A DNA stretch of 61,405 bases, from IMG/VR virus record IMGVR_UViG_3300042868_005269, positions 1-61,405 of that record. One strand, 5' to 3'. Below the pieces are notes generated by a model. That model was not told the origin of the DNA and ran no database searches. It saw nothing but the letters and a program-made list of their open reading frames with translations. The first letter of the stretch is position 1, and each line of letters opens with the position of its first letter. Shown here piece after piece: positions 2,868-52,700 of the stretch. The stretch comes from a virus. Its lineage: Duplodnaviria; Caudoviricetes. Made by a program: the position numbers and the translations under genes.

Positions 2868-3076
2868 AGCTCGTGCTTGTTGAGTGAGGGTTTAACACCG
2901 GGATGCGCCCGGCTGTGGACGCTGAACTGTTTGTACGCAATCACGTTCTGTTCCTTGGTTAGATTTTCATACACCTTGGCGTTCTTTGGCCGAAAGTGAA
3001 CGTCCAGAGTAAACACGCTCGGTCTTGGGTTGTGCGCCCAGTGGAAGGGCGAGTCGGTGTGGCACTTACATTTCAT
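2864..3076 (-). CDS. Hypothetical protein
   Basis: ATGA-type overlaps with both neighbours. Confidence 0.6.
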   Translation of the reverse strand: MKCKCHTDSPFHWAHNPRPSVFTLDVHFRPKNAKVYENLTKEQNVIAYKQFSVHSRAHPGVKPSLNKHEL

Positions 3077-13219: not shown

Positions 13220-13837
13220 ATGTTAGATCACCTCCTTGACTTCGACCCAGAAGTTTTACCTAAGTCACAAGCGCCCTCCCCAGCGGAGAAGGCCGCGCCC
13301 GTTGAGTTGCTGAACGGCAAGATCAGTACGAGCGACTGGCTTAAGGAGATGGGTGTACCTGACGCCGAGACCGCAGTGTCCGAGTTGGAAAAGCAGCAGG
13401 CCCGTCAAACTTTCTCCGCGCTTACAACTGCATCCCCCATAAAAGAGCAGCACGACTTGGTCTCCAAGATAGAGACCCCAGCGGCCGTGCGCCATCTGGT
13501 CGGCATGCTGACCGCATACGACTGGGAGTTTGTGCACCAAGCGCAAGAGCTGCGCGGGTACGCCGTGGCCAAGATTTTGGAAGAGTGCGAGAACCCCAAC
13601 TCCAACATCCGGCTCAAAGCGTTGGGCCTTTTGGGCAAGGTCACAGAGATCGGGCTGTTCACCGAGAAGATCGAGATCAAGAAAACCGACATGACCGAGG
13701 CGGAGATCGACCAGCGCCTGAAAGAGAAGCTGGCCAAGTTCATGGACGTCTCAGACGCCGACGTCACGGACCTCGTGGACATCACGGAAGTCCCAACCCC
13801 CACCCAAGATGACAACCAACCCGCCGCTGACGCCTGA
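13220..13837 (+). CDS. terS: Terminase small subunit (putative)
   Basis: Directly upstream of terL; RLKALGLLGK...GLFTEKIEI C-terminal pattern. Confidence 0.65.
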   Translation: MLDHLLDFDPEVLPKSQAPSPAEKAAPVELLNGKISTSDWLKEMGVPDAETAVSELEKQQARQTFSALTTASPIKEQHDLVSKIETPAAVRHLVGMLTAYDWEFVHQAQELRGYAVAKILEECENPNSNIRLKALGLLGKVTEIGLFTEKIEIKKTDMTEAEIDQRLKEKLAKFMDVSDADVTDLVDITEVPTPTQDDNQPAADA

Positions 13838-15341
13838 GCAAGCTGCGGTTCTGTTTAAGAACCTTGGCAAGATGTCCTCCGCTGAAAAGCTGGAGGCGTT
13901 GGAGCTTTTGGACAAGGCGCAGGACCACAAGCAGAAAAATCTGGCCCGCACGGACATGCTTGCGTTTGCCAAGAGCGTGTATCCGGGGTTCAAGATCGGG
14001 CCGCACCACAGGAAGCTGGCCAAAATCTTCACGGAAGTGATCGCCGGAACGAAAAAGCGGGTCATCATCAACATCGCGCCGCGTATGGGCAAGTCTGAGT
14101 TCAGCTCTTACCTGTTCCCGGCCTTCTTTCTAGGTAATTTCCCTGAGAAGAAGATCATCATGGGCACGCACACGGCAGGTCTGTCCGAAGACTTTGGCCG
14201 CAGGGTGCGAAACTTACTGGCGGACGACGACTACCATGGCCTTTTCCCTCAAACGCTGGTGGCCGACGATCAAAAAGCTGCCGGTAAGTGGTCTACAAGC
14301 GCTGGTGGTCAGTACTATGCTGCTGGTGTCGGCGGCGCTCTTGCTGGTCGTGGTGCTGATCTGTTCGTTATTGACGATCCTCACTCGGAGCAGGACGTTA
14401 AGGCCAACTCACGGCTGGCTTTCGACACTGCGTGGTCTTGGTTCCAGACCGGGCCGCTCCAGCGACTGATGCCGGGCGGCGCGATCATCATCGTGATGAC
14501 GCGCTGGGGCAAGTTGGACCTGACCGGACGCCTGATTGACTACCAAGCCAAGAACCCAGAGGCCGAGCCGTGGGAGATAGTCGAACTCCCCGCAATTCTC
14601 AACGAAGATACTGAGAATGAAAAAAGCCTTTGGCCCGAGCAGTGGCCACTGGCCACCCTCAAGGCAACCAAGGCCAGCATTGACCCCCAGTACTGGAACG
14701 CCCAGTACATGCAGCAGCCCACCAGCAACAGTGCGGCCATCATCTCGCGCAAGTCTTGGCGCATTTGGACGGGCGACGAGCCGCCCCGGTGTGACTACAT
14801 CATCCAGAGCTGGGACACGGCCTTTGAGACCAAGAACACGGCCGACTATTCTGCGTGCACCACATGGGGGGTGTTCTACAACGAGGAAGAGGGCGACAAG
14901 GCGCAGGTGATCCTGCTCGATGCGTTCAAAGACCGCATGGCGTTCCCGGAGTTAAAGGCGATCGCGCTCAAACATTACAAGGAATGGACGCCAGATGCGT
15001 TCATTGTGGAGAAGAAAGCGGCCGGAGCGCCGCTGATCCAAGAGCTTCGGGCCACCGGCATCCCGGTGGAGGAGTTCAGCCCCAGCCGGGGTAACGATAA
15101 AATCGTGCGGCTAAACGCCGTGTCTGACCTTTTTGCGTCGGGTACGGTCTGGGCCCCAGACACGCGCTGGGCCCGTGAGGTGATCGAGGAAGTTGCATCG
15201 TTCCCCAACGGAGAGAACGACGACTACGTTGACACCACCTCTCAGGCGCTGTTACGCTTCCGAAAGGGTGGGTTTATCCCCCTTGACTCGGACGAGAAAG
15301 AAGACCGGACATTTCGGCGTCGCAGAGCGGCGTACTACTAG
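13809..15341 (+). CDS. terL: Terminase large subunit
   Basis: Walker A APRMGKS, Walker B FVIDDP, MTRW, YMQQP, nuclease SWDTA...NDDYVD. Confidence 0.95.
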   Translation: MTTNPPLTPEQAAVLFKNLGKMSSAEKLEALELLDKAQDHKQKNLARTDMLAFAKSVYPGFKIGPHHRKLAKIFTEVIAGTKKRVIINIAPRMGKSEFSSYLFPAFFLGNFPEKKIIMGTHTAGLSEDFGRRVRNLLADDDYHGLFPQTLVADDQKAAGKWSTSAGGQYYAAGVGGALAGRGADLFVIDDPHSEQDVKANSRLAFDTAWSWFQTGPLQRLMPGGAIIIVMTRWGKLDLTGRLIDYQAKNPEAEPWEIVELPAILNEDTENEKSLWPEQWPLATLKATKASIDPQYWNAQYMQQPTSNSAAIISRKSWRIWTGDEPPRCDYIIQSWDTAFETKNTADYSACTTWGVFYNEEEGDKAQVILLDAFKDRMAFPELKAIALKHYKEWTPDAFIVEKKAAGAPLIQELRATGIPVEEFSPSRGNDKIVRLNAVSDLFASGTVWAPDTRWAREVIEEVASFPNGENDDYVDTTSQALLRFRKGGFIPLDSDEKEDRTFRRRRAAYY

Positions 15342-15349
15342 GAACACAC

Positions 15350-17905
15350 ATGGCGACGAACATTGACAAATCCCTTTTCCAACAGCCCATGGGCATCGAC
15401 GCCGCAGGCGAGAAGGAAGAGCCGATCGAGATTGAGATCGTAGACCCGGAAGCCGTGCGTATCAGCGCCGGGGACATGGACATTGAGATTGAGCCGGGCG
15501 AGCCCAGCGTCGATGACTTCGACGCCAACTTGGCCGAGTACCTGCCCGAAGGGGAGCTGGCCTCATTGGTCAGCGACCTTGACAGCGACGTGGACAACGA
15601 CCGCAACTCCCGCAAAGAGTGGGAAAAAGCCTACGTCATGGGCCTAAAACTGCTGGGCCTGCAGATCGAGGAGCGCACAGAGCCTTGGGATGGCGCGTCT
15701 GGCGTGTTCCACCCGATGATTACTGAGGCCGTTGTCAGGTTCCAGTCAGAGACAATCACCGAGACGTTCCCGGCCATGGGCCCCGTGCGCACAAAAATCG
15801 TGGGTAAAGAGACCCCCGAGAAGAAAGAAGCCGCCATGCGGGTCCAAGATGACATGAATTTCCAGCTGACGGAGGTCATGCAGGAGTTCCGCCCAGAGCA
15901 CGAGCGCATGCTGTGGAGCCTGCCAGCCACCGGTTCGGCGTTCAAAAAGGTCTACTTTGACCCTAATATCGGTCGTCAAACGTCGGTTTTTATCCCTGCG
16001 GAGGACATGTTGCTGCCCTACGGCACTTCGGACATCCAGAGTTGCTACCGCGTCACGCACGTCATGCGCAAGACCGAGAACGAGATCAAGAAACTCCAGC
16101 AGGCAGGCTTTTACCGCGACGTGGACATCGGCTCGCCTGACAAACACATCGAAGAGATCAACAAGGCCAAGGACAAAGAGACCGGCTTTGCCGATCTGAA
16201 CGACGAGCGCTACACCCTGTACGAGTCACACGTGGACTTGGTGGTCAAAGGCGATCCGCTGTGCGAGAAGGACGACGATGGCGAGCCGACAGGCATCGCG
16301 CTGCCGTACGTGCTGACGTACATCCGGGGCAACAACACCGTGCTGTCCCTGCGCCGTAACTGGGGAGAAGACGACAACCTGCATTTGAAGCGCCAGCACT
16401 TCGTGCACTACCAGTACATCCCCGGCTTTGGGGCCTACGGCTTCGGTCTGTTCCACCTGATCGGGGGGTTTGCCAACTCGGCCACCAGCTTGATGCGCCA
16501 GTTGATTGATGCCGGTACGCTGAGCAACCTGCCCGGTGGTTTGAAGTCCCGTGGTCTGCGGATCAAGGGCGACGACACGCCGATCGCTCCCGGCGAGTGG
16601 CGCGATGTGGACGTGGGCTCCGGGGCCATCCGCGACAACATCTTGCCGCTGCCTTACAAAGACCCAAGCCAGACGCTGTACAACTTGCTGAATACAGTGG
16701 TGGAAGAAGGTCGCCGGTTTGCTGCAACAGCGGACATGAAGATCAGCGACATGGGGGCCAATGCGCCTGTGGGCTCGACTCTGGCCCTGCTGGAGCGCCA
16801 GCTCAAAGTCATGACGGCCGTGCAGGCGCGTGTGCACTTCACCTTGAAGCAAGAACTGCAGTTGCTGGCGGCTATCATCCGCGACTACACGGACGACGAG
16901 TACACCTACGAGCCAGATGGCGAAGAAGGCCCACGGGCCAAGAAGGGCGACTACCGCCACGTGGACATCCTGCCCGTGAGCGACCCCAACGCGGCTACCC
17001 TCTCGCAGCGCGTGGTCCAGTACCAAGCAGTGATCCAGCTGGCGCAGTCCGCCCCTGACATCTACGACTTGCCAAAGCTCCACCGGGGCATGCTGGAGGT
17101 GCTGGGCATCAAGAACGCCGACAAGCTCGTGCCGCTGGATGAGGACCAAAAGCCCACCGACCCGGTGTCTGAGAACATGAACGTGCTCAAGGGTAAACCC
17201 TTAAAAGCGTTCCAGTATCAAGACCATCAGTCGCATATCCAAGTGCACATGTCGGCCATGCAGGACCCGATCATCATGCAGTTGATCGGCCAGAACCCAC
17301 AGGCACCGAAGATTCAAGCAGCCATGATGGCCCACATTGCCGAGCACGTTGGGTTTGCCTACCGCCAGAAGATTGAGCAGCAGTTGGGCATGCCCCTGCC
17401 GCCCGAAGGCGAGCCGTTGCCACCGCAAATCGAGATCGCCCTGTCCGGCATGATGGCCCAAGCTGCCCAGCAGGTGCTGCAGCAAAACCAAGCGCAAGCT
17501 GCGCAAAAGCAAGCTCAGCAGCAACAGCAAGACCCTGTTGTACAAATGCAACAACAGGAGCTCAAGATCAAAGAGGGCGAGTTGCAGATCAAGCAGCAAA
17601 AGGCTCAGGCTGACCAGCAGCAGGCAGCGCAGGAATTGCAGATCAAACAGCAGAAGGCTCAGGCTGACCAGCAACGCGCTGCACAAGAGATGACGATCAA
17701 AGAAAAGCAAATGCAAATTGACGCTGCCGCCCGCGCCGATGAGCTGGAGATCAAAGAAAAGCAAATGCAGATTGACGCTGCTTACAAGGCCGACAAGCTG
17801 GAGGCTGACCAAGAACGTGACGGTGCCCGTATGGGCGTCGACATTGCAAGAAGCAGACAACAGTCTGCTGCCCAAAACCAAAGGAAAGGTCCCGGTAACA
17901 AATGA
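15350..17905 (+). CDS. Portal protein (P22-like) with long Gln-rich C-terminal barrel
   Basis: Follows terL; 851 aa; GSAFKKVY, YGFGL, coiled-coil tail. Confidence 0.88.
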   Translation: MATNIDKSLFQQPMGIDAAGEKEEPIEIEIVDPEAVRISAGDMDIEIEPGEPSVDDFDANLAEYLPEGELASLVSDLDSDVDNDRNSRKEWEKAYVMGLKLLGLQIEERTEPWDGASGVFHPMITEAVVRFQSETITETFPAMGPVRTKIVGKETPEKKEAAMRVQDDMNFQLTEVMQEFRPEHERMLWSLPATGSAFKKVYFDPNIGRQTSVFIPAEDMLLPYGTSDIQSCYRVTHVMRKTENEIKKLQQAGFYRDVDIGSPDKHIEEINKAKDKETGFADLNDERYTLYESHVDLVVKGDPLCEKDDDGEPTGIALPYVLTYIRGNNTVLSLRRNWGEDDNLHLKRQHFVHYQYIPGFGAYGFGLFHLIGGFANSATSLMRQLIDAGTLSNLPGGLKSRGLRIKGDDTPIAPGEWRDVDVGSGAIRDNILPLPYKDPSQTLYNLLNTVVEEGRRFAATADMKISDMGANAPVGSTLALLERQLKVMTAVQARVHFTLKQELQLLAAIIRDYTDDEYTYEPDGEEGPRAKKGDYRHVDILPVSDPNAATLSQRVVQYQAVIQLAQSAPDIYDLPKLHRGMLEVLGIKNADKLVPLDEDQKPTDPVSENMNVLKGKPLKAFQYQDHQSHIQVHMSAMQDPIIMQLIGQNPQAPKIQAAMMAHIAEHVGFAYRQKIEQQLGMPLPPEGEPLPPQIEIALSGMMAQAAQQVLQQNQAQAAQKQAQQQQQDPVVQMQQQELKIKEGELQIKQQKAQADQQQAAQELQIKQQKAQADQQRAAQEMTIKEKQMQIDAAARADELEIKEKQMQIDAAYKADKLEADQERDGARMGVDIARSRQQSAAQNQRKGPGNK

Positions 17906-20568: not shown

Positions 20569-21501
20569 ATGGCTATTTCACGCGCACAACTGCTCAAAGA
20601 GCTGCTCCCCGGTTTGAACGCCTTGTTCGGTTTGGAGTACGCACGCTACGGCGAGCAACACAAAGAAATCTACGAGACAGAGAAATCTGAGCGTAGCTTT
20701 GAAGAAGAGACCAAGCTGTCCGGTTTTGGCGCTGCTCCTGTCAAGAACGAAGGCTCCGCCATCGCTTATGACAACGCGCAGGAAGCCTTCACTGCACGCT
20801 ACACCCACGAAACCATCGCTTTGGGCTTCTCCATCACGGAAGAAGCTGTGGAAGACAACCTGTACGACAGTCTGTCTGCCCGCTACACCAAGGCTCTGGC
20901 TCGCGGTATGGCTTACACCAAGCAAGTCAAAGCGGCTTCCGTGCTGAACACCGGCTTCGCCGGTACAGCTCTGGGCGGCGACGGCGTGTCTTTGTTCGGC
21001 AACAACTCCAGCGGCACTCGCGTTGGTCACCCTCTGGTCGGCGGCGGCGTTAACTACAACAGCCCCACCACCGGTGTTGACCTGAACGAGACTTCCTTGG
21101 AAAACGCAACGATCCAGATCGCTGCGTGGACTGATGAACGTGGCCTGTTGATCGCTGCCAAGCCTGTCAAGTTGATCATCCCTCCATCACTGATGTTCGT
21201 TGCCAAGCGCTTGCTGGACACCGAACTGCGTGTTGGTACTGCTGACAACGACATCAACGCGTTGAAGCAGATGGGTACCATCTCTGGCGGCTACACCGTC
21301 AACAACTTCTTGACCGACACAAACGCTTGGTTCTTGACCACAGACGTTCCAAACGGCCTGAAGCATTTCGAGCGTACCGCTCTGTCCACTTCGATGGACG
21401 GCGACTTTGATACCGGCAACGTCCGTTACAAAGCCCGCGAGCGTTATTCGTTCGGCTGGTCTGACCCATTGGGTATGTGGGGCTCTTCAGGTTCGACCTG
21501 A
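20569..21501 (+). CDS. Major capsid protein
   Basis: MAISRAQLLKELLPGL...KNEG.AI.YD...LIIPP...YKARERYSFG; TAAGGAG RBS; terminator follows. Confidence 0.9.
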   Translation: MAISRAQLLKELLPGLNALFGLEYARYGEQHKEIYETEKSERSFEEETKLSGFGAAPVKNEGSAIAYDNAQEAFTARYTHETIALGFSITEEAVEDNLYDSLSARYTKALARGMAYTKQVKAASVLNTGFAGTALGGDGVSLFGNNSSGTRVGHPLVGGGVNYNSPTTGVDLNETSLENATIQIAAWTDERGLLIAAKPVKLIIPPSLMFVAKRLLDTELRVGTADNDINALKQMGTISGGYTVNNFLTDTNAWFLTTDVPNGLKHFERTALSTSMDGDFDTGNVRYKARERYSFGWSDPLGMWGSSGST

Positions 21502-21510
21502 TAGAAGCGG

Positions 21511-21540
21511 AAAAAGGGGCCTTGTGCCCCTTTTTCTTTT
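21511..21540 (+). terminator. Rho-independent terminator (bidirectional)
   Basis: aaaaaggggc cttgt gcccc tttttctttt. Confidence 0.85.
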
Positions 21541-21550
21541 GGTGTATATT
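21522..21550 (+). promoter_or_regulatory. Putative sigma70 promoter overlapping the terminator
   Basis: TTGTGC-N17-TATATT. Confidence 0.5.
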
Positions 21551-21559
21551 GCCACCACT

Positions 21560-21632
21560 CCCGGACTTTTCCGGTGTATCTGACGGCTCCGGGCCGACGT
21601 CATGCAGACAGATACGCCTCAACCGCATGAGG
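21560..21632 (+). ncRNA. Structured 5' leader RNA (kissing loop/pseudoknot)
   Basis: Stems 21560-65/21588-93 and 21600-05/21625-30; 10-bp loop-loop pairing 21573-82/21609-18. Confidence 0.6.
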
Positions 21633-21640
21633 AAAATACC

Positions 21641-22060
21641 ATGTCTTTGACCACCTTCTCCGGCCCAGTACGTTCTTTGAACGGTTTCATCACTGGCCAC
21701 CAGCCCACCGCTTTCAACGCAATCAACGCAACAGCCACTGCAACAGCGGCTCAAGTTGCTGACGGTTACATTACCTCGACTTCGGCTGCCGCCACCACCA
21801 TTACGCTGCCCACGGGCACGTTGTTGGGCGCTGCACTAGGCGCTTCGCAGGGCACATCGTTTGACCTGTACGTAGACAACACCGCTGGCGCAAACACTGT
21901 GACTATTGCGGTTGCCACCAATGGCATCTTGTCCAGCGCTGCTGCTGACACTGCCGGTTCGTTTGGCGACCTGACGATTGCTGCTGGCGCTACTGGTCTG
22001 GCACGATTCACAATCATGTTCTCCAGCGCCACAGCGTACGTGTTTACCCGCACTGCCTAA
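21641..22060 (+). CDS. Virion structural protein (head decoration/fibre-like)
   Basis: MSLTTFSGPVRS; Ala/Thr-rich beta protein; GAGG RBS. Confidence 0.7.
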   Translation: MSLTTFSGPVRSLNGFITGHQPTAFNAINATATATAAQVADGYITSTSAAATTITLPTGTLLGAALGASQGTSFDLYVDNTAGANTVTIAVATNGILSSAAADTAGSFGDLTIAAGATGLARFTIMFSSATAYVFTRTA

Positions 22061-22069
22061 TCAACCTCT

Positions 22070-22090
22070 GGGGCTTCGGCCCCTGTTTTA
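22070..22090 (+). terminator. Rho-independent terminator
   Basis: ggggc-TTCG-gcccc tgtttt (cUUCGg tetraloop). Confidence 0.75.
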
Positions 22091-22103
22091 AAGGAGATTG
22101 ATT

Positions 22104-22577
22104 ATGACGATGCAATTTGACGTTAAATCGCAACACGCGGCCGTTTCCGGCCTTATGGTTCCGTACCGAACTCGTTTGAAGGGGGCGGTAATATTCCCTT
22201 TTTCAGCCGCAACGGGCTACAGCGTATTTGTGAACGATGTTTCTATTTCAGGCACATACGCACGCACTACGACCACTGCAACCGTAACCGCAACAGCCCA
22301 CGGCTTGTCTACGGGTCAGTGGGTGTACTTGGACTGGGATTTGACTGACAACCCTTACCAAGTGACTGTGACAAACGCCAACGTCTTTACGGTAACTGTG
22401 GCAGACAGCGGCGCAGCAAGCGGTAACGTCACCGTCTGGAACCAAGTGCTCCTCCAAGCAGATGCGTCTAATGCAACGGCGTTTAACTTAGTTATCCCCG
22501 GAGAAGGCATTATGGCTAAAGACGGAATTCGGACTTTCCTTGCAACCGACGTGCACTGCACGGTGTTTTATGGCTAA
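22104..22577 (+). CDS. Virion structural protein
   Basis: AAGGAG RBS; ATVTATAHGLSTG...FTV beta-barrel insert. Confidence 0.7.
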   Translation: MTMQFDVKSQHAAVSGLMVPYRTRLKGAVIFPFSAATGYSVFVNDVSISGTYARTTTTATVTATAHGLSTGQWVYLDWDLTDNPYQVTVTNANVFTVTVADSGAASGNVTVWNQVLLQADASNATAFNLVIPGEGIMAKDGIRTFLATDVHCTVFYG

Positions 22578-43674: not shown

Positions 43675-43719
43675 AACGCCAGCGCCATGCTGGCGTACCT
43701 ACAATTCAGGAAGCAGGCT

Positions 43720-46700
43720 ATGCCCATTTACAGCGTACAGGGTCCAGATGGACGTATTTATGATGTGGAGGGGCCTGCTGGCGCTTCCGAAGAACAGATT
43801 CTGGGGGCGGTGCGCCGTCAGTTTTTGGCAACTCCGGCCTCTGCGCCAGAAAAAAAGGGCTCCGGGTTGGGCGACATTGCTCGCTCATTTGGTCTGGGGG
43901 CGGTTGGCGCAACGAAAGCTATTACCAGTGCGGCGGGGGCGGATAACGAGGCAGCGCGTGCGCTCGGTAGAGCCGGTGAAAGTCTGCAAGAAGGCTTTAG
44001 CGCAAGCCGCAAAGCTGAGTTGCAGGCACAAGCCGAGCGCATGAAGAAAGCCGAAGCGTCTGGCTCAACCCTTGAAGAAATTAAAGCCGGTGCGCTGAAC
44101 GTGCTGGAAGCGCCGTTGCAGTCTGCCGCGCAGGCCGTGGGCTCATTTGCTCCACTCATTCCCACAATGTTCTTGGCCAAGCCTTTGGCGGCTTTGGGTC
44201 TGGGGGCACGCGCCATCATGGGTGTTCGTGGTGCTATCGGGGGAGCGCAGGGTGCCGGTGCAGTCAAGCAAAATATCTACGACACAGTGCTGGAAGCGGA
44301 AAAAACCGACGGTAAGACAGATGAGCAAGCTGCCGCTGCCGCCTCGCGGGCTCAGTCCTACATCAGCGAAAACGCAGACCAGATTCTTCTGGGCACCGGT
44401 CTTGGTGTTGCGGCAGGTACTAGCGGTGTTGAACGCATTTTGCCCGGCGGCGTGCGCGGTGCTGCAAGCAAGACGCAAGAAGCACTCGCCAAGCGTCTGG
44501 GCGCACGCACAGCCTCGGGTATCACAACAGCCGCAGCCGAGATGCCGCTGGAAGGTCTGCAAGGCGGACAAGAACGGCTTGCCGCTAACCTTGCACTGCA
44601 ACGCACAGGCCGTGACGTAGATGCGTTTACCGGCGTAGCAGGTCAAGCCACGCAAGAAGCACTGACAGGCGCACTGGGGGCGGGACCCATCGGCGCACTT
44701 GTACCAGATCGCCGTGCAGAAATTGCAGAAAAAGAGCGTCAGCAAAAAGAGCAAGCCGACGCTGTGGCCGCAGCCGAAGCTGCCAAGAACACCCCTGAAG
44801 CCCTGCGCCAGCTTGATACAGAGTTCCGCACTGCAGACCAGCAGCTCAAAGCGTTGAACGCGCAGCTCACCGCAAACAGACCCAAGAAGGGGGCCACAGA
44901 CGAGCAAAAGCAAGCGTATGACACGCTCAAAGCCCAGCGCGATGAGTTGTTGACCACGTACAAACCCCTGCGCCAAGAGTTCATGCAGCGCAAAGAAGCA
45001 ATCGACGAGCTTCAAATGGCTGAGCAGTCGGCAATTGAGGTTGCAGCAGCGCAAGGTCAGGCTGCGGCAAAGCTGCCACTGCCGTCCGACATCCCCGGTG
45101 CACAGCCGTTCCAGTTGTCCGACACCTCACGTTTGATGAACGACTACGACACCATGCGCGGCCAAGTGTCCGCGTTGGAGCAGCAACTGGCTGCGGGCCC
45201 TGATCTGGATACCCAGACACAACTGACGCAGCAGCGCGGGCAACTCATGGCGCGTATGAACGAGATGGCTCCGGTCATTGAGGAACGTGGCGGGGTCACC
45301 GACACCGAGCCGGAGTTTGCCAAGAAAATGGCTGCGGCCGAAAAAGAACGCCTGCGCCTGCTTGAGATTGGTGACTTTGATGCTGCGGCAAACCAAGCCG
45401 AGAAAGTCCGTGACCTGCAAACACGCGCTCCCTTCTTGCAAGAGCTGAACGACTTCCGCACAAAAGCAGGGCAGAACCGGGAGCTGACGCTGGAAGAGCC
45501 TGCACAGCCAGAAGGCGCGGGCGTTAAGTACGTGTCGCCTACGGGCAAACCAGTCACGCCTTTCCCAGCAACGGCTACGGAAGCTGCACCGCTGCCTGCC
45601 GACAAGCCCGAAGAACTGGCGGCAGTCCAGACTGCCCAGACCAACGTAAACGCTGCGCAGACTGCGCTGGATGAGGCCGTCAAGACCAAAGACACAACCA
45701 AAATCTTTGGCGCAGTGGACGCGCTCAACCAAGCACAAAACACAGTGGCTCGGGCACAAGAGGATGTGGGTCGCCCACTACTCAAGCCCGCAGTGCTGGA
45801 CATTTTCAGCCCCGCCAACTTGTTTCGCACAGCTTTTGCAAACAACGATACAAAACTGCTCAATGACCTTGCGTCCCACGCCGATACTACGGCGCTGCGG
45901 GCAGCCCTCAACCAGAACCTCAGTGAGCGCGAGAAGCTGGTTAACGTGTTGGAGAACCGCGCTGGTGTTGGTGGTGATGAAAAAGCCATCGACCCCCGTA
46001 CCGGCGAGCCCGGCGAGAGGCTCAAGAGCGTCAAGCGCGAACGCGCTGACTTGTTCTCCCAACTGTACGACGCTCGTCAACAGGCGTTGTTCAAGAACGG
46101 CCAAAACCTTGAGACCATAGAAAGACCTCGCACCGAGCTTGCAGAAGACTTTCAGCTTGATAAAACCGGCAAGCCTGTAGTTGGCGAAGACGGCAAACCT
46201 GTAGTCGTGCGGCAATACGAAAAACCCGTGCTTGATAAAAACGGCCGTCCGGTTATGGACACCGTTCGCTTACAGGACATCTACGACCAAGGTGGCCCCG
46301 CCGCAGTTGAGTACGAGCGCGTCATGCAAGACGTTGAGGACCTGTCCAAGAAAGTCACGACCAAGCAAGGCAACGCCAAGAAGTCTCTGTACGAGCAGCT
46401 CATTGATTTGGCTGCGCAGCACTCTGCGTTGGTGGCGCAAATGGAATCGGGCATTGCTACGCCCAACATGCGGGAGAAGACCACTGCGTTGCAAGCCAAG
46501 ATGGGTAAAGGCGAAGCCCCGGCTGAGCGCCAGATGGATGCCAAGGAAAAGTTTGACCTCCAGCGCCGCATCGACACGCTGGTTAACAAGTACCGCCTGA
46601 CCGAAGGCCAAATTGCTCCCGTCCGTGACCAGATCACGAAGTTGTACAACAGCCTGTACAAGACCACGCCGCTTGAGAAGACCAGTAAGGCTGCGGACAG

Positions 46701-49700
46701 AAAAGCCACTGAGGCCGAAGAGCGCAAAGAACGTGCTAAGCCTCTAAAAGAAATTGCCGACAAGTACGGTATGAAGTCGCCTGAGTACAAAGAGGCTTTG
46801 GCAAAACAAGTTGCTGAGAGTAAAGCCGCAGGGCGTGTGCCTAAAGTATCAGTGTCACGCACAGCCCAGACAGCCGCACGGCTTGCCAAGGGCGATGTGC
46901 GCAAAGAAGCCGAAACGTCAAAACAAATGCGCGACTTAGCGATTGAGTTGGGGCAGCGCGAACCGGAATATGTGCGGATGCAAGCCAACGCAGAAAAGCG
47001 TTTAACGGCTTTGGAGAACAAATACGGTAAAGGCGATCCGCAAGTACGCGCCTACAGCACGCAAGTGATGGATGCGTTAGAAGCAAAAGCCGTTGGCTTG
47101 GGTAAACAAACGCCCGAGTACAAGGCCACACTGAAAGAGCAGGTCGAATACGTCAAAGGCGCTCTGTCCCAGAGCAAGCAGACAGTGCCAACCAAACGTA
47201 CAGGGCCAGTTACGCGCACGCAGTCATCCGCGCCTACACGCCTTGTCAGTTCTTCACCTGAAAGTCGTGAGCAGACGGACATGGAGAACAAAGCAATTAA
47301 CGCGCAGCGCCGCGCTATTAAAGATGCACGCGAAGCGCTGCGGTCTGAAAAAGAAGACCGTGACTACCTGCGCGGTGTTGAGACTGAAAGCCTTGAGTTG
47401 AGTCGTGACGTAGTTGCGTTGCTTGAAAAAGGTGATGTGCGCGGCGCACTGCTGCTGATCAGTAAAGACCCGGCTGTGGACAAGTTTAGCCAAGCTGTTG
47501 CTGCGCGTCTTGAGCCGTTCCTTGATGTCACCAAGGTTGAAATTAAAAACAACATGCGCTCTGACGACGGCAAAGAAGTCTTAGGTGCCGCCACGAGCAA
47601 GTTGATTGAACTCAACCGCAATGGCGGTCTGTCCGTTGAGACGTTGCTTCACGAAGCCACACACGCCGCAGCCGAACGCGTTGTGCAGTTGTCTGAGACA
47701 AATCCTAACGCACTTACCAAAGAGCAGAAGCTGGCCATCAACGAGCTCAAAGCGTTGCACGCCCGCGTTAAAAACGACAAAGGCATCACCAGCAAAAACG
47801 CCAAGAGCAGCTTGTCGGAGTTTGTGGCCGAAGTCATGTCCAACCGCAACTTGCAAAAGCAACTGGCCCAACGTCAGTGGCGCTTGGTGGATGCGTGGAA
47901 GGGCGTTAAGTCCATCATCATGCGCATGTTGGGCATGCAAAAAGTGGAGACCATGTTTGGCGCGTCTGTTGTGGCGGTCGATCAATTGTTCGTCCCTGCA
48001 AGCGCCAAGGTCGGTAAGGGTCGCAAAGAGACACGCGTTACCCGCAGCTTGTCGGCTAAGGACATTGCTGCGCTGGACGACGGCAGCAACTCCATGAAAC
48101 AATTTGCTGACCAGTTCGGCCAACTTATCAAACAAAAAGACCGCACACCCGCCGACGTTGAGCGCATCGGTGCCCAAGTGATTGATGACATGCTGAACAG
48201 TGTGTCGCCTATGCCGCGCAACACGGGGGCACCTAGACCCAGAAGCGAAGCAGAAAAACTTCAAGCAGAGCACGATGCAAAGTCTGTTGTGGCGCTTCCA
48301 ACAGCAGACTCGTTGGACTACAAGGGTATGGTTACCATGTCTGACGGCAAAGTGTACGACGAGAACAACCCCCTGCACTACGTTGAAGCAACCCCCGCGA
48401 CGTTTGCTGCGTTGGAGGCTGTGAACAACCCGTCACTGCGCAAACGCGAAGCGGAATCAATTGCGTCCCAACGCAAAACAGACTTCCTCAACTTGATAAG
48501 CTACTTGATGGGGAACTACGAAAACTACACCACGGCTGAAACAGCGCTGGTGCTCAAAGCTGCGGCCAAGTACGGCGTCATCTCCGGCAGCAACGGCCGT
48601 TTGAAACTTGTTGAGATCGGCAAAGACAACCGCCACAACATTGCAGTGCTGGGCAAAGAAACAGCAGACGCAATCATCGAGCAGTTGCGTGCGGGCAAAG
48701 GCCTCAAGCAAGCCTTCTTGGATGGTTTGCAAAAAAACGCAGACGACAACGCCAAGAACAACGAGCGCAAGAACGGTTGGAAGAAGTTTGATCAGGCCGA
48801 CCAAGAATACCTTCCCAACGCATACCCTGACGACGAAGTCGATGCTGCCATTTTAGATGCGGGTTTGAGTGATGAGGACATCCGCGATAACGGTTGGGAC
48901 AAAGAAGCTACGATTGGGTGGCTTATTGAAAACGGCTATCTTGAAGATCGCACGGGCGGCAAAATTTTTGAAGAAGCTGCCATTGCGCTGAACGAAGGTT
49001 GCGCAGGCACGCCATGGTGCACGGGCGCAAGCGTAAGCACTGCCCGCAGCCAGATTGAAGGGGGTGACTTTTACGTTTATTACAACAAGGGGCGTCCCGA
49101 AGTTGCGGTGCGCATGAATGGTAAAGACCGAATTGGTGAAATTCGCGGCAACAACCCGAACCAAGCGCTTGATCCTGCGCAGCAACAAATTGCTGCTGAC
49201 TTTTTACGGGCAAAAAAGTTTGAAAAAGCAGACCAATACCTTTCCGAGTTTGAGCGCCGTGAAGCGTTGGTTAAGTTGGCCAAAGGCGAAACAAAACTGG
49301 GCGTCAGTGATTTGCTGGGCGATAAAAGCCCGTTGGACAGCAACGGCAAAGTGGACGACTACGAAATAAACAGATTGTTGAAGTTCCGCACAATCGACGG
49401 TTACGGCAACCGCCCAAAACCTGTAGACAGCGTCGTAAAGTTTTTTGGTCAGCAGTACCTTGACGCGGCAATCCGTGCGTACGAAAACAACGAGTTTGTG
49501 TTTTCAAAATTAGACGTGGATGAAGATTCAAATACTAAACCTGTTGAGGTGGAGTTTGCCGGTAAAAAGTACACGGCTTCCCCTGCGGACGTTAAGGCAC
49601 TTAACCGGGTTACTGTTAGCGTGTACGCTTACGGGTCAAAACCAGCGGCTCCTGTAGTACTTCCAAAACTTGCAAAGCTGGGGGAGCTCAGTTTCTTTCG

Positions 49701-52700
49701 CGGTGAACTAGATTTGCCCGCGTTGCAAACGGTGGATACAGTCACTTTCTTCAATGAAGTTTCCAGACTTAATACCGTTGCAAGAATAAAAATGCCGACA
49801 GACGCACGCGTTAACAAAGTGCAAAGCTACGGTAAAAAAGTAAGCGGCATTATTGAAGGACCGCAGACTATCAACCTTGTAACGCTTACGCGTGAAGGCG
49901 GCGCGTTGACGCTGGATTTGCCGGACACTAAGTACGTCGCCGTTTTGGACGACCCGAAAGGCGTGGCTAGGCACTTTTCGTCTGAAGCGGATAACGCCAT
50001 TGATAACCTGCTGAAAGCTGACGGTCTTGATTTTGCCGACATCATGCGTGCAAAACGCGGCGAAGCCACGATGGCACAAAACGCTGCATACCAAAAAGTT
50101 GCAAAGCAGCAAATTAAAAAGTTTTTTGATGCGTTGGAAAAATCTTTTGGGTACACGGCGTACGAGCACGCATTGAACAATGGGGACACGGCCGAAGCGT
50201 TCAGGATTACGAACGACTACCGAAAGGCAATTCGCAACGCCGTAGACGATGTGCTGGAGCTTAACAAGTACTCCCGCGAAGCCTTTGACAAAATGGCAAA
50301 GGTCGTCAAAGACTCCACCGGCGCAGAGGTGGCGTACCCCGAAGGGCAGCTGATTGCGCCCAAGCGTGTGGGCGATCCACCGTACGGCGCGGAGTTTACT
50401 GAAGCGCCTGAACAGCGTCGCTTTGCGCCCAAAGATGTGGGTGTGCAAGAGGACAAGAAAGGCTTGTTCTCGTTTGCCCGTAAGCAAGTCAACTCGTCGT
50501 CTGTGGTTGCGCGTGAGCCGGGCGTTGTGGACACCTTGCTTGGCAACATCATGGGCTTGGCTGGCCGCGTGCAGTTTATCGACCAGTACGCAGCTTTGGA
50601 AGCCGCTACTAAGAAGGGCTTGAGCGCAGGCGTCATCAGCAGCTTGGAGGCAACCAACGCCAACTACCTGCTGCGGTTTGGCCAGCAGCGCAGCCAGTTC
50701 TCAGGGCAGTTCCTGACCAACGGTCCGGTCAAGGCGGAGATCACACGCAAGAACGGCGGCACTGAAACGCTGTACCGCAGCACCAAGGGCACGTCCATGG
50801 TGGACGTTGCGCAGGCACTCAACAAATCCAAGCTGTCCAACGACGTGGAGCAAGAGAACATGTTCACGTTGTACGTGGCAGGCAAGCGTGCGCAGCAAGT
50901 TGGGTGGGACAAGCTCAACTTTTCCAGCCCTACGCAAGCCAAGGCTGAGTACGACGCTGTCATCGCACGACTGAACAACAACGACACTGCCAAGAAAGCG
51001 TTTGAAGAAGCGGCCAAGCTGTACCAAGAGTACAACGCAGGCTTGCTGGACTTCCTTGCGCAGACAGGCGCGTTGTCGGACAAGAAGGTAGCCGAACTCA
51101 AAGCGATCAGCTACGTGCCGTTCTACCGGGTGAACAACAACGGTGAAGTGCAGTTGATGGTGGACAAAGAGCGCCCTGTGCGGATTGCCAATATCAAGGA
51201 CCAGCCGCAGCTCAAAGAGCTGATTGGCGGCAACACAGCCATCTTGCCGATCTTTACCAGCGCAGCGCAGAACACATTCATGCTGACTGGCATGGGCCTG
51301 CGCAACCAAGCGGTGAAGGAGACCTCCTTCATGCTGCAAAAGCTGGGCATCGCCAGCCGCGTATCGTCTGGCAACGGCCCGACAGGGGCCAACGTGGTGC
51401 GCTTCTTCAAGAAGGGCGAGCCGTACTACGCGCTGATCGACACCGATGCTTACGGCATTCCGGCTGATTTAATTGTGCGGGGTATGGAGGGCATCAAGAC
51501 AACGCTGCCTGCCGTTATCAAACTGATGGGCATGCCCGCCAACATCTTGCGCTCGTTTGTTGTGCGTAACCCGGCTTACGCTGTGCGCCAGATCATCCGC
51601 GACCCGCTCAACGCATGGATGACAACGGGCACAGACGCTGTGCCAGTGCTTTCGTCTATGAAAGAGCTGGCCAAAATGGTTGCTGGGCGCAGTGATGCCG
51701 AGCGCAAGCTCATGGAGACAGGTGCGATCAGCAGCAACGTCTACAGCGGCGACGATCAGGACATGGCCAAGTTCCTCAAAGACATGTCGGCAGGCAAGTC
51801 AGGTTGGGACAAAGCCACCGCGATGCTGGACACGTTTGCGCTGCAAGGCGACGCTGCTACACGCGCTGTGATCTACAAAGACTCGCTGGCCAAAGGCATG
51901 TCGGAGCAAGAAGCTCTGCTGCGCACACTGGAGTCCATGAACTTTAGCCGCCGGGGCGTGTCTCCAAGCATGCAGGCGCTGTCCACGCTCATCCCGTTCT
52001 TCAACGCACAGGTGCAGGGTCTGGACGTAATCTACCGAGCCATGAAAGGCGACATGCCGTACAGCCAGCAGTTGGACATTCGGGGCAAGATGGTGCGCCG
52101 TGGGTTGATGCTGGCCGCAGGCACGATTGCTTACGCCGCTATGATGGAGGACGACGAAGCCTACAAACGCGCCAAGCCTGAAGAACGCCTTGCCAACTGG
52201 TTTGTGTATGTGCCCGGTATTGACGAGCCTGTGCGTGTACCCATCCCGTTTGAAATGGGCTTTTTGTTCAAGGCGTTGCCTGAAGCTGTGTACGCCATGG
52301 CTATGCAAGACGGCAAAGCGGACGCTGCGCTGAGCGGGCTATCCAAACTGGCGTTGCAGACCATTCCGTTGAGCCTGCCGCAAGCCGTTAAGCCGCTGAC
52401 AGAAGCGGTGCTGGGCAAGTCGTTCTACAGCGGCGACATCGAGTCTGTTCGTGAGAAAGACGTATTGGCCACGCAGCGTTACCGCGACAACTCCACAGAG
52501 CTGGCCAAAACAATTGGCGCAGTGACAGGAAACATTGGACTCAGCCCAATCACGATCGACTACCTGATCCGTGGGTACACAGGCGGGCTGGGTATTGCGT
52601 TGGTGCAGTTGGCCAACCCGATACTGGCTCCCGGCGACAAAGCCGAGGTTGCACAGCCCACAACCAAGATCAGCAAACAGCCGTTCATCGGCGGATTGTT

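What the first reader, a model, noticed from the sequence alone, without database searches (positions are those of the whole stretch)
21560..21643. Kissing-loop RNA with an alternative fold that covers the RBS after the capsid gene
Seen: hairpin 1 (CCCGGA 21560-65 / UCCGGG 21588-93) and hairpin 2 (UCAUGC 21600-05 / GCAUGA 21625-30) have loops that pair over 10 bp (GGUGUAUCUG 21573-82 / CAGAUACGCC 21609-18, one G-U). Hairpin 2 overlaps the GAGG Shine-Dalgarno of the 21641 gene. A competing hairpin (CCGGA 21561-65 / UCCGG 21570-74) is mutually exclusive with this fold. The element starts ~10 nt after a TATATT -10 box. Inference: a translational switch (riboswitch-like or protein-bound) setting decoration-protein dose, or a small structural RNA.
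Basis: partly seen in the sequence, partly recalled or inferred. Interest (0 to 1): 0.72.

Follow-up and report, generated by a model that had tools for sequence, protein, structure and literature searches.

The report
Knotted leader RNA after capsid gene
A family of uncultured freshwater phages carries, just after the capsid gene, a conserved and unusually knotted ~75-base RNA that starts the message of the next gene and tucks away its ribosome-binding site, so it probably controls how much of that protein is made.

Summary
All three helices lie at the stated coordinates. All three covary in relatives. On a plain MAFFT alignment of 52 elements, 82.3% of cells pair, against 66.2% shuffled and 29-44% slid. 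On 57 distinct sequences from a second set of loci not used to build the model, 94.1% pair against 77.4%.

A mutual-information scan found two more short helices. One flanks each 3' arm, so each 5' arm pairs with the loop of a mini-hairpin and the 10-bp helix joins the two halves. That gives five helices and about 27 bp in 73 nt.

The Shine-Dalgarno GAGG (21629-21632) lies wholly inside the fold. A conserved sigma-70-type promoter ends 9 nt before the first helix. G-U outnumbers A-C 118 to 27, so the + strand RNA is the folded strand. Rfam has no match.

Best reading: a new cis-acting translational operator at the 5' end of a separately promoted mRNA. Its effector is unknown. The "competing hairpin" is only partly conserved, and the "decoration protein" label is unverified.

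The parts
20569..21501 (+). Major capsid protein gene, upstream neighbour
   Evidence: PHROG 371 major head protein, E 2.6e-19. Pfam Phage_capsid_4, E 2.3e-13.
21509..21537 (+). Intrinsic terminator after the capsid gene: a 12-bp stem followed by a T run
   Evidence: A G+C hairpin followed by a T-rich run is visible at this place in most of the related loci printed (by eye, not counted).
21522..21550 (+). Sigma-70-type promoter: -35-like TTGTGC 21522-27 (inside the terminator loop), 17-nt spacer, -10 TATATT 21545-50
   Evidence: Read. The scanner did not call it (8 of 12 matches). Many relatives have TTGACA-17/18-(G)TG(T/A)TATATT at the same place. In 44 of 70 printed rows a TAnnnT box starts 14-16 nt before helix a.
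21557..21557 (+). Predicted transcription start (A), 7 nt after the -10 box and 3 nt before helix a
   Evidence: Inference from promoter geometry only. Weak hint: metatranscriptome contigs begin at 21570 (run X7) and 21582 (run X18), and none laid bridges 21401-21554.
21560..21565 (+). Helix a, 5' strand (CCCGGA); pairs with 21588-21593
   Evidence: 96-98% of cells paired; 4 of 5 modelled pairs in the first set and 3 of 5 in the second show changes on both sides.
21570..21574 (+).
   Evidence: conserved in the CCGG-type members only.
21573..21582 (+). Helix b, 5' strand; pairs with 21609-21618 (10 bp)
   Evidence: all 10 pairs have compensatory changes; 40 distinct b strands.
21583..21583 (+). 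Conserved unpaired A between helix b and helix d
   Evidence: At least 90% conserved in the column consensus.
21584..21586 (+). Helix d, 5' strand (CGG); pairs with 21594-21596 (CCG) and encloses a' as its loop
   Evidence: Top mutual-information pair. Middle pair AU 30, UA 30, GC 7, CG 1, other 2 and AU 39, UA 9, GC 5, CG 4. The outer pairs are invariant C-G and G-C.
21588..21593 (+). Helix a, 3' strand (UCCGGG), lying in the loop of mini-hairpin d
21594..21596 (+). Helix d, 3' strand (CCG)
21597..21599 (+). Conserved junction ACG between helix d and helix c
   Evidence: A and C are at least 90% conserved.
21600..21605 (+). Helix c, 5' strand (UCAUGC); pairs with 21625-21630
   Evidence: all 6 pairs have compensatory changes.
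21606..21608 (+). Conserved junction AGA between helix c and b'
   Evidence: G and A are at least 90% conserved.
21609..21618 (+). Helix b, 3' strand (CAGAUACGCC)
21623..21624 (+). Helix e, 5' strand (CC); pairs with GG 21631-21632. It is 2 bp here and 3 bp in most relatives.
   Evidence: Variants read by eye in the sequences: CUU/AAG, CUC/GAG, GUG/CAC.
21625..21630 (+). Helix c, 3' strand (GCAUGA), lying in the loop of mini-hairpin e
21629..21632 (+). Shine-Dalgarno GAGG, 8 nt before the AUG. G29 and A30 are paired in c'; G31 and G32 are paired in e.
21641..22060 (+). Downstream gene, 139 aa. The N-terminus is conserved (MSLTTFSGPVRSLNGF) and the rest is hypervariable among relatives (75-246 aa).
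   Evidence: Labelled cement or minor capsid protein only in GenBank relatives.
22070..22083 (+). Terminator-like hairpin after the gene (GGGGCTTCGGCCCC followed by a T-rich tail)
   Evidence: With the promoter it brackets a one-gene unit. The X7 RNA contig spans 21570-22115 (weak).

Best explanation
The stretch 21557-21640 is the 5' leader of a separately promoted mRNA for the 139-aa gene that follows the capsid gene. It folds into a compact five-helix double pseudoknot:
- The 5'-terminal strand a pairs with the 6-7-nt loop of a mini-hairpin d.
- Strand c pairs with the 6-nt loop of a second mini-hairpin e.
- A 10-bp helix b/b' ties the two linkers together.
- Seven conserved unpaired bases (A; ACG; AGA) sit where helices b, c and d meet.

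The Shine-Dalgarno sequence forms the 3' side of helices c and e, so the folded RNA hides it. The stability of the whole fold therefore sets translation initiation. Because the 5' end is paired within about 3 nt of the start, the fold probably also protects the mRNA from 5'-end-dependent decay.

The conserved junction bases suggest that a factor binds the fold. I favour a phage protein, in the manner of autogenous phage and ribosomal-protein operators, which would stabilise or open the fold.

Shown: the helices, their covariation, the strand, the linkage to the gene, and the overlap with the SD. Inferred: the transcription start, the coexistence of all five helices, any regulation, and the identity of the effector.
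For: 1. Covariation of helices a, b and c.
- MAFFT alignment: 82.3% of cells paired against 66.2% shuffled, 0 of 500 shuffles as high.
- Alignment fitted only to a and c: b/b' is 86.5% paired, and 10 of 10 pairs have double changes.
- Alignment fitted only to b: helix a is 97.7% paired and helix c 88-94%.
- Second locus set of 57 distinct sequences: 94.1% against 77.4% shuffled and 19-47% slid.

2. Helices d and e were found by mutual information and belong to no search model. Helix d is 98-99% paired, with its middle pair switching among AU, UA, GC and CG. Helix e is 86-93% paired.

3. G-U cells number 118 and A-C cells 27, so the + strand, the gene's sense, is the folded strand.

4. The model finds one hit per locus, always directly before the conserved MAxTTFSGP gene. 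This also holds in the 17 of 73 hits where other genes lie between the capsid gene and the element.

5. A promoter lies at a fixed distance upstream, and a terminator-like hairpin follows the gene.

6. At least 3 bases of the SD core lie inside c'/e3' in about 110 of 127 distinct sequences, and all 4 do in the window.

7. There is no Rfam match at E up to 10 on the element, and none at gathering score in 20 diverse loci.
Against: - No experiment or read-level RNA data exist. The only RNA evidence is contigs.
- In the 15 members of the CUACUA/CAC type the SD lies 0-3 nt after helix e, not inside it (read by eye). Occlusion is therefore not universal.
- I found no conserved alternative (ON) structure. 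The one candidate, the a/alt hairpin, is family-specific.
- A protein needed in amounts equal to the capsid protein would be ill served by a buried SD.
- Whether a/a' can coexist with d, and c/c' with e, depends on a one-nucleotide or zero-nucleotide crossing of the deep groove. This is known from H-type pseudoknots and kissing loops (recalled) but was not modelled here.
- Neither the downstream protein nor any other phage protein has a recognisable RNA-binding domain.
Confidence: 0.6

Rival explanations
1. Constitutive 5'-end armour. The knot only protects the mRNA from RppH, RNase E or RNase J attack at the 5' end, in the spirit of ompA-type 5' hairpins or exoribonuclease-resistant RNAs. It presents the start region in a fixed way, with no regulated switching.
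For: Helix a begins about 3 nt after the predicted start. The 5' strand is captured by a hairpin loop. No conserved second conformation was found. The unit has its own promoter and a terminator-like hairpin.
Against: A simple hairpin would be enough for protection. Seven conserved unpaired junction bases and an SD built into helices c and e are not needed for it. The transcription start is only inferred.
Confidence: 0.2
2. Small-molecule riboswitch. The junction bases form a ligand pocket, and binding stabilises the pseudoknot that hides the SD, as in the SD-sequestering pseudoknot riboswitches (preQ1-II, SAM-II and NAD-II types; recalled).
For: The fold is compact and pseudoknotted, with invariant unpaired purines at a multi-helix junction. 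The SD is part of the fold.
Against: The regulated gene is a hypervariable virion-module gene, not a metabolic or transport gene. No Rfam riboswitch model matches. No ligand can be proposed from the genomic context.
Confidence: 0.1
3. Self-cleaving ribozyme or processing element. It would trim read-through transcripts from the capsid gene and define the 5' end of the downstream mRNA.
For: The topology of a hairpin loop pairing with a downstream internal strand resembles that of pistol ribozymes (recalled). The core bases are conserved. The position directly follows a terminator that may leak.
Against: No ribozyme family of Rfam matches, even at E up to 10. There is no P3-like stem. A conserved promoter already supplies a 5' end.
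Confidence: 0.05
4. Processive antitermination RNA in the manner of HK022 put. The nascent two-hairpin RNA just after the promoter would modify RNA polymerase so that it reads through downstream terminators.
For: The structured RNA starts within a few nucleotides of a promoter. A terminator-like hairpin follows the gene at 22070-83.
Against: The element always abuts the SD and the start codon and includes the SD, which antitermination does not need.
Confidence: 0.04
5. A two-state switch. The a/alt hairpin (21561-65 / 21570-74) would compete with a/a' and so toggle the kissing fold.
For: The hairpin is 5 bp at a fixed place in the CCGG-type members. It changes to CUGG/CCAG together with a/a' in L048, L053 and L060. 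RNAfold uses part of it.
Against: It is weak (G-U rich), displaced or absent in the CUAGG, CCUAG, CCAAG and part of the CUGGG types. CCGG is self-complementary, so the match comes for free. Matches of 4 bp in a 20-nt loop are expected by chance.
Confidence: 0.15

Closest known systems
Pseudoknot translational operators bound by their own product (T4 gene 32 leader; E. coli rpsO/S15 and alpha-operon/S4 leaders)
   Same: A pseudoknotted 5' leader next to or including the SD. It acts in cis on translation initiation. The phage example sits at the 5' end of the message. The T4 case is described in PMC3014915 (search listing and abstract only) and mentioned in passages of PMC10690425. The rest is recalled.
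   Different: There is no sequence or model similarity. This fold has five helices with two loop-capture modules. No binding protein is known.
Kissing-loop complexes (ColE1 RNA I/RNA II, HIV TAR-TAR*; recalled)
   Same: Hairpin loops whose bases are almost all used in a Watson-Crick helix with another strand. The 6-nt loops of d and e are fully paired, as in TAR-TAR*.
   Different: This complex is intramolecular. The partners of the d and e loops are linear strands, not loops. The 10-bp b/b' helix joins two long linkers rather than two small loops.
SD-sequestering pseudoknot riboswitches (preQ1-II, SAM-II/V, NAD-II; recalled)
   Same: A compact pseudoknot in which the SD is part of the last helix, with conserved junction bases.
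   Different: No Rfam model matches. The gene context is a virion module. No ligand is indicated.
Candidate structured RNAs mined from IMG/VR (PMC10690425, 10,006 csRNAs)
   Same: The same data source (IMG/VR phage contigs) and the same kind of object (cis-regulatory candidates directly upstream of phage genes).
   Different: The passages I read name candidates upstream of GP20, GP32, terminase, the major capsid protein and others. None is placed after a capsid gene or upstream of this gene. The full list is in supplements I could not open, so this motif may be listed there without a description.

Membership tests
Any Rfam 15 family | Covariance-model match at the gathering score, or at least at a low E-value | tested here: not met
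   In window 21200-21900 at E up to 10, the only matches lie on the terminator or in the coding region and none lies on 21555-21640. Twenty diverse loci give 0 matches at gathering score.
Intramolecular kissing-loop / double pseudoknot RNA | Two stems whose loops form a Watson-Crick helix, supported by covariation | tested here: met
   helices a, b and c all have compensatory changes, and shuffled and slid controls are far lower.
Intramolecular kissing-loop / double pseudoknot RNA | All helices form at the same time in one molecule | not testable with these tools
   Covariation cannot separate simultaneous from alternating pairing. No pseudoknot-capable 3D or energy model was available.
Autogenous protein-bound translational operator | The structure overlaps or abuts the SD or the start codon | tested here: met
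   Window SD 21629-32 lies inside c'/e3'. At least 3 SD bases are paired in about 110 of 127 distinct sequences. In the other 15 the SD follows helix e within 0-3 nt.
Autogenous protein-bound translational operator | Specific binding by the encoded protein or another phage protein | not testable with these tools
   No RNA-binding domain was found in the neighbouring proteins. A binding assay is needed.
Riboswitch | A conserved aptamer core of unpaired bases at a junction | tested here: inconclusive
   A33, A46, C47, G56 and A57 (model columns) are at least 90% conserved. This fits a pocket, a tertiary core or a protein site equally well.
Riboswitch | Association with genes of one metabolic or transport pathway | tested here: not met
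   The element always precedes a hypervariable virion-module gene.
Pistol-type self-cleaving ribozyme (features recalled) | A P1 loop to internal loop pseudoknot plus a P3 stem and the conserved core | tested here: not met
   No Rfam ribozyme model matches. The linker b'-to-e is 2-12 nt with no stem.
5'-terminal stabiliser stem (ompA type; recalled) | A stem within a few nucleotides of the transcript's 5' end | tested here: inconclusive
   The -10 box ends 9 nt before helix a in most loci, which predicts a start about 3 nt upstream. No read-level start data exist (one search gives contigs only).
HK022 put-type antiterminator RNA | A promoter-proximal two-hairpin RNA that makes RNA polymerase terminator-resistant | not tested
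   The position fits. There was no model to compare with and no functional test.

The most novel reading that the evidence does not exclude
The element is a new class of ligand- or protein-sensing RNA with a fold not described before. It has two "loop-capture" pseudoknot modules clamped by a 10-bp helix. The fold both seals the 5' end of a phage late mRNA and gates its ribosome-binding site. In this way it would time or dose a hypervariable capsid-surface protein in response to an infection-stage signal, for example free capsid or accessory protein, or a host or phage small molecule.
Probability: 0.3. Interest if true: 0.85.

Novelty: new variant of a known kind. Interest (0 to 1): 0.68.

Why it matters
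Few cis-regulatory RNAs are known in the structural modules of tailed phages. About 54 of its 73 nucleotides are paired, in five covarying helices, and it has no Rfam match. It offers three things:
- a tractable model for how a phage sets the dose or timing of a hypervariable virion protein;
- a compact natural double pseudoknot for structural study;
- a possible part for synthetic control of translation or mRNA stability.

It also shows that terminator, promoter, leader, gene and terminator can form an independent cassette inside a late operon.

Tried and rejected
- RNAfold on the window alone gave z = -1.25 and a nested fold that uses b/b' as a long hairpin. It cannot model pseudoknots, so I did not use it for or against.
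- Identity of the 139-aa protein stayed open. PHROGs gave no family. Pfam gave only a sub-threshold Cu-oxidase_3 hit. PDB by sequence and by profile gave nothing significant; the best was 8cjz_B "Capsid Decoration Protein" at E 0.71. tblastn against phage records found no match. The protein atlas gave only "hypothetical protein" viral clusters. The AlphaFold2 model had mean pLDDT 59.4, too poor for a fold search, so I ran none.
- The promoter word GTGTATATTG is not a repeated phage promoter in the window: 3 matches with up to 1 mismatch, against 1.76 expected.
- Metatranscriptome contigs: X7 has one 546-nt contig that covers exactly 21570-22115. X18 has one that begins at 21582. No contig shown in the (truncated) listing bridges 21401-21554, and depth there is about zero in X7 and X17. 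These are contigs from RNA libraries and no DNA run was laid alongside, so this is at most a weak hint of a separate transcript. The lack of cover proves nothing.
- Habitat: the best holders are lake and freshwater metagenomes. Runs with small shares were not used.
- Pag-Yong1 (L001) has no hit. Its GC-rich leader has two other hairpins and an anti-SD stretch (by eye).
- HTVC027P and Alcaligenes phage QDWS535 show no such element by eye; these loci were not scanned with the model.
- No conserved upstream ORF. The AUG at 21602 is in frame here, but it is absent (ACAUAC variants) or, by my own count, out of frame in relatives.
- No tRNA in the window or in L036, L038 and L064.
- Literature: searches found no description of this element. 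Of PMC10690425 I read only found passages; its supplementary tables were closed and may list the motif. Of PMC10611076 I read found passages; it does not mention the RNA.
- I did not scan genome contigs or metagenome contigs, and I did not use complex prediction.

Full report
**What is there.** The window is an IMG/VR virus record of 61,405 bases, estimated 96% complete. The runs that hold it best are lake and freshwater metagenomes. It is a tailed phage with these genes:
- large terminase, 13809-15341;
- portal, 15350-17905;
- major capsid protein, 20569-21501;
- a 3113-aa ORF with a weak match to N4-type virion RNA polymerase.

Its nearest named relatives are the uncultured lake phage DSL-LC04 and, more distantly, Planktothrix phage Pag-Yong1.

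After the capsid gene the features come in this order:
- a strong intrinsic terminator, 21509-21537;
- a -10 box TATATT, 21545-50;
- the element;
- GAGG, 21629-32;
- the start codon, 21641, of a 139-aa gene;
- a terminator-like hairpin, 22070-83.

**Checking the observation.** This includes the 10-bp complement between the two loops. In the window alone, only 2 of 500 shuffles of loop 2 reach 10 bp. RNAfold cannot see pseudoknots, so its z of -1.25 says nothing either way.

**Relatives.**
- I fetched 80 IMG/VR loci with the capsid protein as query, then aligned 52 post-capsid regions with MAFFT (A1).
Shuffled columns give 66.2% (0 of 500 as high) and slid partners give 29-44%. There are 167 double-change cells against 53.7 expected.
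- A covariance model holding only helices a and c (R1) found exactly one strong hit in 73 of 83 sources, and only 21550-21653 in the window.
- On its alignment, b/b', which the model does not contain, pairs in 86.5% of cells, and all 10 pairs show changes on both sides.
- A second model holding only b/b' (R2) gave an alignment on which helix a pairs in 97.7% and helix c in 88-94%.
- Taken sequence by sequence, the longest uninterrupted complement between loop 1 and loop 2 is 10 bp in 44 of 70 distinct sequences, 9 in 11, 11-12 in 2, 8 in 2, 7 in 9 and 5 in 2. There are 40 different b strands, and the shuffled mean is about 5 bp.

**Replication.** A second set of 80 loci, fetched with the DSL-LC04 capsid protein, played no part in building R1.
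- R1 hit 70 of the 80.
- These hits give 57 distinct sequences, none identical to the first set.
- They pair in 94.1% of cells, against 77.4% shuffled and 19-47% slid.

**Sources without a hit.**
- First set (10): Pag-Yong1; L059, which has no stop codon for the capsid gene; seven loci with fewer than 700 nt after the capsid gene; and L037.
- Second set (10): seven loci have 2-429 nt of flank. L093 has an inserted gene that looks like a GIY-YIG endonuclease by eye (not scanned). L161 and L163 carry a different, shorter leader.

**Two more helices.** I merged the two alignments into 127 distinct sequences and ranked all column pairs by mutual information.
- The top pair is the variable base in "GAC-N-G" just before a' with the variable base in "C-N-GAC" just after a'. 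It is Watson-Crick in 98% of sequences.
- With its two invariant neighbours it forms a 3-bp helix d that encloses a' as its loop. In the window this is 21584-86 with 21594-96.
- Likewise the three bases before c' pair with the three after it (helix e). By eye the variants are CUU/AAG, CUC/GAG and GUG/CAC. In the window e is only CC 21623-24 with GG 21631-32.
- Formal counts for d: 98.1% and 99.4% paired. The middle pair is AU 30, UA 30, GC 7, CG 1 in the first set and AU 39, UA 9, GC 5, CG 4 in the second.
- Formal counts for e: 85.6% and 93.3% paired.
- Neither helix was in any search model.

**The fold.** There are five helices and about 27 bp in 73 nt.
- Strand a, at the 5' end, pairs with the loop of mini-hairpin d.
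- Strand c pairs with the loop of mini-hairpin e.
- Helix b/b' joins the two long linkers.
- The bases that stay unpaired and are at least 90% conserved sit where b, d and c meet. In the window they lie at A21583, in A21597-G21599 and in A21606-A21608.
- That a/a' can coexist with d, and c/c' with e, needs one base or none to cross the deep groove. This happens in H-type pseudoknots and in fully paired 6-nt kissing loops (recalled). I could not model it here.

**Strand and context.**
- G-U cells outnumber A-C cells 118 to 27. The folded molecule is therefore the + strand, the sense of the gene.
- Upstream, many loci have a full sigma-70-type promoter, TTGACA-17/18-(G)TG(T/A)TATATT. In 44 of 70 printed rows a TAnnnT box starts 14-16 nt before helix a. 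This predicts a start about 3 nt before the helix, near 21557 in the window.
- In 17 of the 73 hits of the first set, other genes lie between the capsid gene and the element. L005 has a GIY-YIG/NUMOD3 endonuclease and L048 a methyltransferase. The promoter, the element and the downstream gene stay together.
- That gene has a conserved N-terminus (MAxTTFSGPVxSxNGF) followed by a hypervariable body of 75-246 aa.
- Its function is not established. GenBank relatives call it "cement" or "minor capsid protein". No family, solved structure or confident model supports or contradicts that.

**The ribosome-binding site.**
- In the window, G21629 and A21630 of the SD are paired in c', and G21631 and G21632 are paired in e.
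- Across the 127 distinct sequences, at least 3 bases of the SD core fall inside c'/e3' in about 110.
- In the 15 members of the CUACUA/CAC type the model's register is off. By eye, the SD there starts 0-3 nt after helix e.

**Mechanism.**
- Best-supported reading: a cis-acting translational operator. The knot hides the SD, so its stability sets initiation. A 5' end paired within a few nucleotides of the start should also slow 5'-end-dependent decay.
- The conserved junction bases argue that something recognises the fold. By analogy with phage and ribosomal-protein operators I favour a protein, but nothing here identifies it.
- The rivals are a constitutive stabiliser, a small-molecule riboswitch, a self-cleaving or processing element, and a put-like antiterminator. 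All remain open and are listed with their tests.
It is not conserved across the other types, and it may simply follow from CCGG being its own complement.

**Comparison with what is known.**
- No Rfam 15 family matches the element in the window at E up to 10, or in 20 diverse loci at gathering score.
- Five literature searches found no description.
- A 2023 survey predicted 10,006 candidate structured RNAs from IMG/VR (PMC10690425; passages read). This motif may be in its supplementary lists, which I could not open. The passages I read do not describe it.

**Verdict.**
- The interpretation as a translational switch is plausible but unproven.
- The element is a new RNA family of a known general kind, with an unusual double loop-capture fold.

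Noticed in passing
L166 3230-3310 (Roseobacter phage CRP-902); L161 and L163, about 2960-3025: A second, shorter leader precedes the same MATTTFSGP-type gene. It shares the words CUGAC and GACAGGAG. It contains a small hairpin, G(G/U)UGC...GCG(C/A)C, with one compensatory change between CRP-902 and L161. The covariance model does not hit it.
   Followed up: partly
L001 3400-3510 (Planktothrix phage Pag-Yong1): A GC-rich leader with two other hairpins. The first has a GACUGAC loop. A stretch CCGUCUCC in the second loop is complementary to the SD region GGAGACGG, and partly to GACGG in the first loop. This could be an anti-SD arrangement. It was read by eye only.
   Followed up: no
L005 3480-4304; L048 3476-4153; also L008, L016, L019, L035, L040, L069, L080, L093: The gap between the capsid terminator and the element is an insertion hot spot. 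L005 has a GIY-YIG/NUMOD3 endonuclease (Pfam E 1.1e-10). L048 has a methyltransferase. L035 has a weak GIY-YIG match. Five of the eight inserted ORFs scanned have no family; the inserts in L016, L069 and L093 were not scanned.
   Followed up: partly
window 21641-22060 and homologues (A5): The downstream protein keeps about 16 conserved N-terminal residues. The rest differs completely in sequence and length (75-246 aa) between close phages. This is the pattern expected of a capsid-anchored, surface-exposed variable protein.
   Followed up: partly
window 43687-53028: A 3113-aa ORF with a weak N-terminal match to N4-type virion RNA polymerase (PHROG 2206, E 6.1e-9) and a match to an unknown-function family at its C-terminus.
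   Followed up: no
window 21522-21527: The -35-like TTGTGC of the promoter lies in the loop of the capsid terminator hairpin (GGGGCC-TTGTG-CCCC), so terminator and promoter overlap. The same CTTGTG loop recurs in many related loci.
   Followed up: partly
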